DNA of 64,000 nt from the human T2T-CHM13v2.0 reference genome, Homo sapiens. The notes below the pieces were generated by a model. That model did not search any database, was not told where the DNA came from, and saw only the letters and a program-made list of their open reading frames with translations. Both the position numbers and the translations under genes were made by a program. Shown piece after piece: positions 33,337-36,176 of this stretch; the first letter of the stretch is position 1; the number at the start of each line of letters is the position of its first letter. The stretch is taken from NCBI RefSeq assembly GCF_009914755.1, contig NC_060947.1, one strand, 5' to 3'.

Positions 33337-33751
33337 GGAGGACAGATAGAATAGAATTTAGACCCAGGCTGGGTGCAGGGGTTCATGTCTGCAGTCCCAG
33401 CACTTTGGAAGGGTGAGGCAGGTGCATTGCTTGCATCCAGCCTGAGTGATACACAAAGACCCCAACTCTACACTTGTATAGACATTTACAATCTACAGTT
33501 GGGAGTATAGACATTTAGTACGGACAGAATGTCTGTCCAGGCCTAAATTCTATTCTTTTTTCCTCTTTTTTTTTTTTTGAGGCAGGGCCTCACTGTGTCA
33601 CTCTGGCTGGACTGCTGTGTTACAACCTCGGCTCACTGCAACCTCTGCCTCCTGGGCTCAGGCGATCCTCTTGCCTCAGCCTCCCAAGTAGCAGGGATTA
33701 CAGGTGCGTGAACCACCATGCCCGGCTAAGTTTTGTATTTTTGGGAGAGTT
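33337..33751. repeat. Duplicated block, copy A (unique flank plus opposed Alu fragments)
   Basis: Collinear with 35693-36073. Confidence 0.9.
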
Positions 33752-33884
33752 CGATCTGTCTCATTTTCGTCTCTTCCTTATCACTTGTGGATCATCAAGG
33801 CGTTCAGAGTCCTTCACGGGACACCAAGAGGCCAAGTTCTTGTTTTGACTTTACCATGTCAGTACATTAATTTCTTCTTATTGA

Positions 33885-34186
33885 TTTATTTACGTATTTA
33901 TTTTGAGACAGATTCTTGCTCTGTCACCCAGGCTGGAGGGCAGTGGTGCCATCTCGGCTCACTGCAACCTCTGCCTCCAGGGTTCAAGCGATTCTCCTGC
34001 CTCAGCCTCCCAAGTAGCTGGGATTACAGGCACCCGCCACCATGCCCAGGTAATGTCTGTATTTTTAGTAGAGACGGGGTTTCTCCATGTTGGCCAGGAT
34101 GGTCTCGAACTCCTGAGCTCAGGAGATCCACCCACCTGGGCCTCCCAAACTGCTGGGATGACAGACGTGAGCCACCATGCTTGGCC
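33885..34186 (-). mobile_element. Alu (S-type)
   Basis: Alu consensus match. Confidence 0.95.
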
Positions 34187-34289
34187 TATCTTTCCCCTGT
34201 TGAATCTGTTTCTCTAGAAGGGAAGTTTGCAAAAAAGAAAAAAACCTTAACGTATGAATAAATGATGTCTACAAAAAGCAAATCCTACA

Positions 34290-35190
34290 GTCACGGGTGC
34301 AGGTACATTTTTCTTTGCAATTCTAGCAAATTCTCCCCTTGGGAATACAAAATACGCCATTCTTTTTTTTAATTCTTGTTTTAAGGATGGCCACTGTCAC
34401 AGAACATGAGTGAGGGACGGTATCTGCGTACGTTGAAAATGCTCACGGTTTCTGGTGCAGAGATTTCTCTGGAGTAATGGCATTTTTCTGTGTGGCAGTT
34501 AGCATTTAGAGTGAATAGAGTTTTTCTCTCTCTCTTTTTTTTTTTTGCAGTGTTATGCACTCGAAAATGTCATCTTTTTTTCTATTCCTTTTAAAATCAA
34601 ATTACAACCTGACATTCAATAAAATATCTTTTGCGCAACTAATAAAAACAAGACCCTCGCTGCCTTGACAATTAAGGCACGGGGTCCGACACGCCGCCTC
34701 CGATACAGTTTACGGCTTCCCTTTGATGTCAGGGTTTCCTATATTAAAAAAAAAAAAGAGCCCCATTATTTATTAATAGCCTTCTGTGTTTTAAACGTTT
34801 CTTTTTCTTGTGTGGAGAGAAAAAAAAATCATTTGCCTTTTAATGGGGTGTCAGATTTGCTTTCGAAACCTTCTAAAAGGTTATCGTTGTTGAATACGAA
34901 CAAGTTTCTTTCTGCGGAATCAATGAAGACTCTGTTTCCCGGGCTGCTCCGTGGAAAACTTAATTTCACCATTTTGCAAAGTGCAGGGCTGGGACGTTTC
35001 ACTGCGGTTAACTATTTTCACATGGAAGGTAAAGAAAAATGCAAAGTCCTCACACGTACTAAATAACCTGCAGGCTGCCTTATGTCCGGGACGTCTTGCA
35101 ACGGCCTGGCGGTTAGAGCTCACGGAGATGTCCAGTTCAATTAGATGCTTCGTAAACCTGCTAGCAATTAACTCAGCCAGGAGCTGAGAC
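34290..35190. promoter_or_regulatory. Candidate conserved non-coding enhancer
   Basis: Repeat-free with retained CpGs; CCTTTGAT (TCF/LEF, 34720), CAATAAAA/CTAATAAAA (posterior HOX-like), TGACAATTAA (MEIS plus homeodomain). Confidence 0.55.
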
Positions 35191-35336
35191 CGAACACCAG
35201 GACTAAGAGGGGGTTACATCCCGGTCCAGGAGCTGAGACTTAACTGCCAGCTCCTGAACTACCTCGAGGCCGAGCTAGCAGTATCTACCAGCTTGACCAG
35301 CTGCCCTGGAGAAAATGACCCACCTCCAAATTCTAT

Positions 35337-35646
35337 ATTTTTATTATTATTATTATTTTTTGAGGCAGAGTCTCACTCTCTGTCCCCCAGGCTGGAGTGC
35401 AGTGGTGCGATCTCGGCTCACTGCAACCTCCGCCTCCCGGGTTCAAGCAATTCTCCTGCCTCAGCCTCCCGAGTACCTGGGACTACAGGCGCCCACCACC
35501 AGGCCCGGCTAATTTTTGGTATTTTTAGTAGAGACGGGTTTTCACCATGTTGACCAGGCTGATCTTGAACTTCCGACCTCAAGTGATCCGCCCGCCTCGG
35601 CCTCCCAAAGTGCTGGGATGACAGGCGTGAGCCACCACGCCCGGCC
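35337..35646 (-). mobile_element. Alu (S-type)
   Basis: TSD cctccaa[a/g]ttctat at 35323 and 35645. Confidence 0.95.
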
Positions 35647-35692
35647 TCCAAGTTCTATTGTAACCCATCTCTAACTTTGATTGTAACTGTAG

Positions 35693-36176
35693 GGAGGACA
35701 GATAGAATAGAATTTAGACCCAGGCTGGGTGCAGTGGTTCATGCCTGCAGTCCCAGCACTTTGGGAGGCTGAGGCAGGTGCATTGCTTGAATCCAGGCTG
35801 AGTGGTACAAAAAGTACCCTCAACTCTACAGTTGGGAGAGTAGACATTTAGACCCGGACAGAGTGTCTGTCCAGGCCTAAATTCTATTCTTTTTTCCTTT
35901 TTTTTTTCTTTTTGAGGCAGGGCCTCGCTCTATCATTCTGGCTGGACTGCCGTGGTACAGCCTCGGCTCATTGCAACCTCTGCCCCCTGGGCTCCTGCCT
36001 CAGCCTCCTGAGTAGCTGGGATCACAGGTGCCCGCCACCACGCCTGGCTAAGTTTTGTATTTTTGGTAGAGTTGGGTGTTTTTGTGTGTGTCATTCAGGC
36101 TGGGTTCAAGCAATCCACCTGTCTCGGGCTCTCAAAGTGCTGGGACTAACAGGCGTGAACCACTGCACCCAGCCTG
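35693..36176. repeat. Duplicated block, copy B, continuing into a minus-strand Alu
   Basis: Collinear with 33337-33751. Confidence 0.9.

What the first reader, a model, noticed from the sequence alone, without database searches (positions are those of the whole stretch)
33337..36073. ~400-bp direct repeats bracket the best enhancer candidate
33337-33751 and 35693-36073 share unique linkers (ggaggacagatagaatagaatttagaccca; tgtctgtccaggcctaaattctattc) and the same odd Alu fragments (ctggctggactgc). Recombination between them would delete or duplicate ~2.36 kb containing 34290-35190, an event small enough to be missed by arrays.
Basis: partly seen in the sequence, partly recalled or inferred. 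Interest (0 to 1): 0.7.

Follow-up and report, generated by a model that had tools for sequence, protein, structure and literature searches.

The report
Old local duplication flanking SHOX CNE4
Two 90%-identical copies of a 400-base stretch do flank a long-known enhancer of the height gene SHOX, but they are likely an old, inert copying accident that would only rarely cause the enhancer to be deleted, and no such deletion turned up in the papers I could search.

Summary
The repeat is real: 33333-33751 and 35689-36073, 350 of 382 aligned bases identical (91.6%; 82% with gaps), longest perfect run 42 bp. The 'enhancer candidate' is the published SHOX enhancer CNE4 (paper primers hit 34543 and 35213). 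The 'unique linkers' occur only at this locus in the genome, but here many times and on both strands. The right copy lies inside an older fold-back palindrome (35646-36251, about 80% arms) built around an old Alu; the left copy is a later, truncated duplicate, likely older than the great-ape radiation. There is no sign of gene conversion, and the assembly's second PAR1 haplotype is intact. The pair fails classical NAHR criteria but is within the range of Alu-type homology-mediated deletions. It is the top-scoring of 432 direct matches straddling CNE4 in this window; a plain Alu pair lies closer (1.46 kb). The routine SHOX MLPA kit (P018-G2) has a probe inside CNE4, and the cohort tables I read list no CNE4-only event. 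Full long-read callsets could not be checked. Verdict: ordinary local duplication; a rare 2.32-2.36 kb deletion is possible but unshown.

The parts
33333..33751 (+). Left copy of the direct repeat (derived, truncated): motif unit, inverted Alu left-monomer fragment, small hairpin, then tail and right monomer of a minus-strand Alu that stops just after the A-rich linker
33468..33491 (+). About 23 extra bases in the left copy, a further degenerate unit of the local motif; accounts for the offset change 2356 to 2333
33504..33555 (.). Copy of the central hairpin (predicted DNA fold -10.4 kcal/mol)
33880..34187 (-). Full-length Alu; with 35338-35645 forms the closest direct pair around CNE4 (85.5% over 290 nt, 1457 bp apart, longest perfect run 21)
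34543..35213 (.). SHOX enhancer CNE4 (published PCR amplicon); deeply conserved core CRCNE00011095 at about 34824-34909; MLPA P018-G2 probe near 34706
   Evidence: primers from PMC3123344 match at 34543-34563 and 35194-35213; coordinate transfer
35338..35645 (-). Full-length Alu with target-site duplication 35324-35336 / 35646-35658 (12 of 13 identical), inserted at the outer end of the left palindrome arm
35646..35862 (+). Left arm of the fold-back palindrome; lacks about 170 bp (tail and right monomer of the old Alu) relative to the right arm
   Evidence: 178 of 222 columns identical; 35646-35829 vs 36066-36251, 80.6%
35689..36073 (+). Right copy of the direct repeat (likely the source): most of the left arm, the palindrome centre and the 3' half of the old Alu
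35838..35889 (.). Palindrome centre: about 24-bp arms around a 3-base loop at 35863-35865 (predicted DNA fold -11.2 kcal/mol)
35890..36175 (-). Old, highly diverged full-length Alu (median 70% to 18 other window Alu hits, against 83.5% for its two neighbours); candidate target-site duplication 35872-35889 / 36175-36192 (14 of 18)
36066..36251 (-). Outer right arm of the palindrome (Alu left monomer plus non-Alu flank), with a small hairpin 36179-36227 whose 7-base loop is inverted relative to the left arm, and a 23-bp tandem unit 36212-36259

Best explanation
A 400-bp direct repeat flanks the known SHOX enhancer CNE4; it is likely the neutral scar of an old replication template switch that copied part of a pre-existing Alu-containing palindrome 2.3 kb upstream, and it would act only as a weak, Alu-pair-like substrate for a rare 2.32-2.36 kb deletion. 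Inferred order: (1) an old Alu entered a short degenerate 23-27 bp repeat; (2) a fold-back event mirrored it about 35864, and the left arm lost or never had about 170 bp; (3) another Alu entered the outer left arm; (4) 35689-36073 was copied to 33333, by a forward-and-back template switch or by a tandem duplication with later loss of the first CNE4 copy (same end product); the order of 3 and 4 is not fixed. Shown: sequences, identities, copy relationships, CNE4 identity. Inferred: mechanism, direction, age, rarity of exchange.
For: Three-way comparison of the shared segment: left copy and left arm share 19 differences from the right arm, against 5 and 6 for the other pairings, of 139 columns (about 6 of the 19 are one loop inversion). 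Non-CpG divergence 8.2% (30 of 365) for the direct pair against 17.8% (32 of 180) for the arms. The right copy holds the complete Alu with a candidate target-site duplication; the left stops mid-Alu in unique sequence. Per-lineage divergence 0.044 (95% CI 0.029-0.063) against 0.031 summed from human back to the great-ape ancestor in PAR1 (PMC9575207 Table 1). Longest perfect run 42 vs shuffled mean 35, P=0.20. C24 haplotype keeps both copies and CNE4: 24 substitutions and 9 small indels in 5995 columns. A second local duplication of similar age lies in the same window (21545-21770 / 28347-28572, 94%; best other genomic copies 83% or less). Inverted duplications mostly arise by replicative, microhomology events (PMC12350158). 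No CNE4-only event among 42 enhancer-only variants or in 52 patients on a 371-bp tiling array.
Against: The pair is the highest-scoring of 432 direct matches of 100 nt or more that straddle CNE4 in the window (429 bits, next 396). In 1,019 long-read genomes 10.8% of unclassified deletions have 200 bp or more of flanking homology and no minimal length is evident; alpha-globin exchanges used matches under 50 bp at 5 kb. PAR1 male recombination is about 17-fold the average. Only two haplotypes were compared, and the cohorts seen are small. No primate outgroup was available, so direction and age are inferred; the same clock dates the palindrome at 58-100 Myr, too old at the upper end for an Alu (recalled age about 65 Myr or less), so absolute ages are upper bounds.
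Confidence: 0.75

Rival explanations
1. The pair is an active substrate: single-strand annealing or template switching, helped by the palindrome and by PAR1's male recombination rate, recurrently deletes or duplicates CNE4 alone.
For: Best-scoring direct pair around CNE4 and only 2.3 kb apart; Alu-type junctions mostly need under 25 bp of microhomology and start at about 0.6-0.8 kb; Alu-bounded deletions are documented downstream of SHOX; the right copy sits in a quasi-palindrome.
Against: No homogenisation; palindrome arms only 80% identical with a 236-bp spacer; 89.3% of Alu-flanked SVs use full-length pairs and old AluJ are depleted, though these two copies are closer than random old Alus; no copy of the recalled PRDM9 13-mer in 33333-36255 against 19 in the window (weak); MLPA covers CNE4 and tables seen list no such allele.
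Confidence: 0.12
2. The repeat is the remnant of a whole 2.3-2.7 kb tandem duplication that once included CNE4, whose first enhancer copy was then deleted, perhaps under dosage selection.
For: The order P-R'-Q-R-S (R repeat, Q enhancer block) is what tandem duplication of Q-R followed by loss of the first Q gives. Tandem duplications are frequent in this window.
Against: No remnant of Q before the left copy: 32800-33335, 33752-33870 and 34290-35190 each match only themselves and C24. Needs two events where a double template switch needs one; selection is untested. This is a variant of step 4 of the best explanation, not a different present-day reading.
Confidence: 0.1
3. The two copies are independent insertions of a transposon family or the long terminal repeats of one element that captured CNE4.
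For: Two direct repeats of about 400 bp around a unique core look like paired LTRs.
Against: The non-Alu parts have no relatives elsewhere in the genome (the search skips very common words); the copies are mosaics of Alu halves; CNE4 is conserved to Fugu at this locus, far older than any Alu.
Confidence: 0.03

Closest known systems
SHOX enhancer CNE4 (Sabherwal CNE4; CONDOR CRCNE00011095; hg19 chrX:714,084-714,753)
   Same: It is this element: both published primers match exactly once, at the ends of RefSeq enhancer 34543-35213; the CONDOR core maps to 34823-34908 against RefSeq 34824-34909. Reporter activity in chick limb, zebrafish and U2OS cells is published.
   Different: The flanking repeat and palindrome are not mentioned in the passages I read; no CNE4-only loss is described in them.
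Alu/Alu-mediated rearrangement (AAMR) / transposable-element-mediated rearrangement substrates
   Same: Direct orientation, about 300-400 bp, 80-92% identity, kilobase spacing, partly Alu sequence.
   Different: Copies are paralogues of one local mosaic, not two independent full-length Alus; no rearranged allele is known, so it is a potential substrate only.
Low-copy-repeat NAHR substrates (CMT1A-REP type)
   Same: Direct paralogous repeats flanking a dosage-relevant element.
   Different: About 25 times shorter than 10 kb, about 90% against over 97% identity (abstract start of PMC4344489), 42 bp perfect against 300-500 bp.
Fold-back inverted duplications and quasi-palindrome template switching
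   Same: Mirror symmetry about a 3-base loop, flank and Alu copied together, an inverted hairpin loop.
   Different: Ancient and apparently fixed; one arm lacks about 170 bp; arms only 80% identical, so strong cruciform formation is unlikely (inference).

Membership tests
SHOX CNE4 enhancer | Position and sequence of the published amplicon | tested here: met
   Primer matches 34543-34563 (+) and 35194-35213 (-); primers read
SHOX CNE4 enhancer | Enhancer activity; needed for normal SHOX expression in humans | not testable with these tools
   Reporter activity published; no CNE4-only loss found in the papers seen
LCR/segmental-duplication NAHR substrate | Length over 10 kb (segmental duplication at least 1 kb, recalled) | tested here: not met
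   385-419 bp
LCR/segmental-duplication NAHR substrate | Identity over 97% | tested here: not met
   89.8-91.6% of aligned columns, 82% with gaps
LCR/segmental-duplication NAHR substrate | Uninterrupted identity of 300-500 bp | tested here: not met
   42 bp; threshold and its exceptions
LCR/segmental-duplication NAHR substrate | Gene conversion or homogenisation between copies | tested here: not met
   Longest run as expected by chance, P=0.20; of 4 X/C24 substitutions inside the copies only 35936 matches the paralogue, and that base is the common Alu state (27 of 29 hits)
AAMR/TEMR-type substrate | Direct orientation, at least 80% identity over at least 200 bp, microhomology tracts | tested here: met
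   criteria
AAMR/TEMR-type substrate | Two full-length, usually AluS/AluY elements at matching positions | tested here: not met
   Left Alu truncated at 33751; source Alu about 70% to other Alus. The inner pair 33880-34187 / 35338-35645 is full-length; subfamilies not assigned
AAMR/TEMR-type substrate | Observed chimeric junction allele | tested here: inconclusive
Fold-back inverted duplication | Mirror copy that includes non-repeat flank, symmetric about a short loop | tested here: met
   Non-Alu flank 35646-35721 aligns without gaps to the reverse of 36176-36251; centre at 35863-35865
LTR pair or dispersed transposon | Relatives elsewhere in the genome | tested here: not met

The most novel reading that the evidence does not exclude
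A recurrent, precisely bounded 2.32-2.36 kb deletion (and reciprocal duplication) of CNE4 alone arises between these repeats, most often in male meiosis, and segregates in people: a natural single-enhancer knockout that would show whether CNE4 contributes to human height and might explain some SHOX-negative short stature.
Probability: 0.07. Interest if true: 0.55.

Novelty: new member of a known kind. Interest (0 to 1): 0.17.

Why it matters
If the allele exists it would isolate one of the SHOX enhancers, whose individual contributions are unresolved because patient deletions usually remove several; the predicted junction makes it a one-query lookup in SV databases. Otherwise the locus is a tidy but ordinary example of layered template-switch scars in PAR1 beside an enhancer known since 2007.

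Tried and rejected
Dispersed repeat or LTR origin of the linkers: rejected. A non-coding RNA in the repeat: 36 Rfam matches at E up to 1 in 33000-36800, none at its gathering score, the top ones Alu/7SL-like or hairpin look-alikes. Recent gene conversion: no support. Remnants of a duplicated enhancer block: none. Clear junction microhomology: cannot be called without the ancestral junction. Absolute dating: unreliable. Literature: nine answered searches, on SHOX with CNE4 or CNE-4, ZED, MLPA single-probe terms (0 papers), P018, long-read SV terms, AAMR, MEPS and PAR1 rates, showed no report of this repeat or a CNE4-only CNV; subscription papers (Sabherwal 2007, Benito-Sanz 2012, Bunyan, Fukami) were not seen. 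PMC12269289 proved irrelevant (other CNE numbers); PMC6155277 does not mention CNE4. The 1,102-patient series gives known-enhancer events as 'data not shown', so it says nothing on CNE4-only alleles; whether kit version G1 has a CNE4 probe was not verified. The main supplementary PDF of PMC12350158 was too large to read and its table file was cut.

Full report
Observation. The repeat is in the sequence. The copies run 33333-33751 and 35689-36073, with 350 matches and 32 mismatches, longest perfect runs of 42 and 35 bp, and 82% identity when gaps are counted (MAFFT 344 of 383). Indels make the offset 2356 bp in the first third and 2322-2335 bp in the rest, so a crossover product would measure 2.32-2.36 kb. 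The partner scores 426 bits against 168 for the best ordinary Alu: these are paralogues.

The enclosed island. It is SHOX CNE4. The primers printed in PMC3123344 (passages) match once each, at 34543 and 35213, and the conserved core transfers to within one base of the RefSeq feature. Reporter activity in chick limb, zebrafish and U2OS cells is reported (passages of PMC3123344, PMC2778764, PMC4668379, PMC4971310). It is one of seven or more SHOX enhancers; the deletions that commonly cause disease lie further downstream, and PMC6155277 (abstract and introduction) suggests that only larger deletions commonly cause Leri-Weill dyschondrosteosis.

The linkers. They occur only here in 3.1 Gb, on C23 and on the second pseudoautosomal copy C24, but locally they recur on both strands as degenerate units of a 23-27 bp repeat that form small hairpins.

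The right copy is part of an older fold-back palindrome. The reverse of 35640-35862 aligns to 35866-36265 at 178 of 222 columns, symmetric about a 3-base loop at 35863-35865, the left arm lacking about 170 bp of the Alu tail and right monomer. The non-Alu flank is mirrored too, with a 7-base loop inverted between arms. The central Alu (35890-36175) is old, 70% median identity to other window Alus against 83.5% for its neighbours. A further Alu sits in the outer left arm with a 13-bp target-site duplication; homology to the right arm continues for 9 of 12 bases beyond it, modest evidence that it came after the fold-back.

Order and age. In the segment present three times, left copy and left arm agree against the right arm at 19 of 139 columns, against 5 and 6 for the other pairings. 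Non-CpG divergence is 8.2% for the direct pair and 17.8% for the arms. So the fold-back came first and the direct duplication later; the truncated left copy is likely the derived one. Its per-lineage divergence, 0.044 (0.029-0.063), exceeds the 0.031 from human to the great-ape ancestor in PAR1 (PMC9575207 passages), so it likely predates great apes. Years are upper bounds, since the same clock over-ages the palindrome. A forward-and-back template switch or a tandem duplication with later loss would give the same product; no remnant of a second enhancer block exists.

Does it recombine? For: it is the top-scoring of 432 direct matches straddling CNE4 in the window; Alu-type junctions mostly need under 25 bp (PMC6071635 passages) and span 0.6 kb upward (PMC13041450 passages); in 1,019 long-read genomes homology-flanked deletions are common with no clear minimal length (PMC12350158 section 20); alpha-globin exchanges used under 50 bp (PMC2583991 passages). 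Against: it fails all classical NAHR criteria; 21 of the 432 matches, itself included, have a perfect run of 42 or more, many of them microsatellites, and a full-length Alu pair lies closer at 1457 bp; 177 same-orientation Alu pairs straddle CNE4 in the window; mismatches are spread as by chance (P=0.20); C24 keeps the whole structure; a second local duplication at 94% lies in the same window.

Would it have been missed? Genome-wide arrays probably would miss it, but MLPA P018-G2 has a probe for each CNE, one at hg19 714,247 (PMC12897797 passages), about window 34706. In 266 plus 33 children tested with kits G1 and G2, none of 42 enhancer-only variants was CNE4-only (PMC13168890 abstract and section 6). 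A 371-bp tiling array on 52 MLPA-negative patients found only 8.9 and 12.8 kb deletions near the gene, and 252 controls had no deletion by G1 (PMC8801136 parts). These samples exclude a common cause, not a rare allele. The long-read paper's supplement lists only selected SVs, was cut, and had no entry at chrX 590-593 kb; the full callset remains the decisive test. PMC8535414 passages added nothing specific.

Verdict. Real, now explained in outline, and ordinary: an old local duplication of part of an Alu palindrome beside a known enhancer. My estimate is about 0.12 that the pair yields a recurrent CNE4-only allele, and about 0.07 that such an allele segregates usefully for a height test. Interest 0.17.

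Noticed in passing
window 21545-21770 and 28347-28572: Second local direct duplication: 226 bp of a dispersed repeat, 94% to each other and 83% or less to the best other genomic copies; 6802 bp apart on C23 but 7697 bp on C24, so the interval (which holds the 50-bp tandem array 23490-25281) differs by about 900 bp.
   Followed up: partly
window 42638-43577: Tandem units of about 345-360 bp of a family whose 122 listed matches lie in the first 3.7 Mb of C23 and in C24 PAR1; resembles the subtelomeric interspersed repeat STIR (name recalled, not tested).
   Followed up: partly
window 33880-34187 and 35338-35645: Full-length same-orientation Alu pair 1457 bp apart, 85.5% identical; a deletion between them would also remove CNE4 alone.
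   Followed up: partly
window 34535, 34575, 34820: Small homopolymer or dinucleotide length differences between C23 and C24 at the edge of and within CNE4; no substitution between 34217 and 35357.
   Followed up: no
window 17156-17429, 45594-45857, 46827-47100: Alus with 90-92% identity and perfect runs of 57-62 bp that straddle CNE4 at 28-30 kb; the longest perfect Alu matches across the enhancer in this window.
   Followed up: no
window 299-907 and 41079-41685: 609-bp inverted match at 88.7% outside Alu and tandem arrays, probably two copies of one interspersed repeat.
   Followed up: no
window 35177-35195 and 35226-35244: A 19-bp direct repeat at the right edge of CNE4, the second copy followed by its partial inverse near 35246-35258.
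   Followed up: no
window 5848-7587, 10462-12418, 19026-21189, 23490-25281, 37347-38528, 48734-49859: Six large minisatellite arrays (42, 105, 27, 50, 89 and 142 bp units), the likelier sources of structural polymorphism in this window.
   Followed up: no
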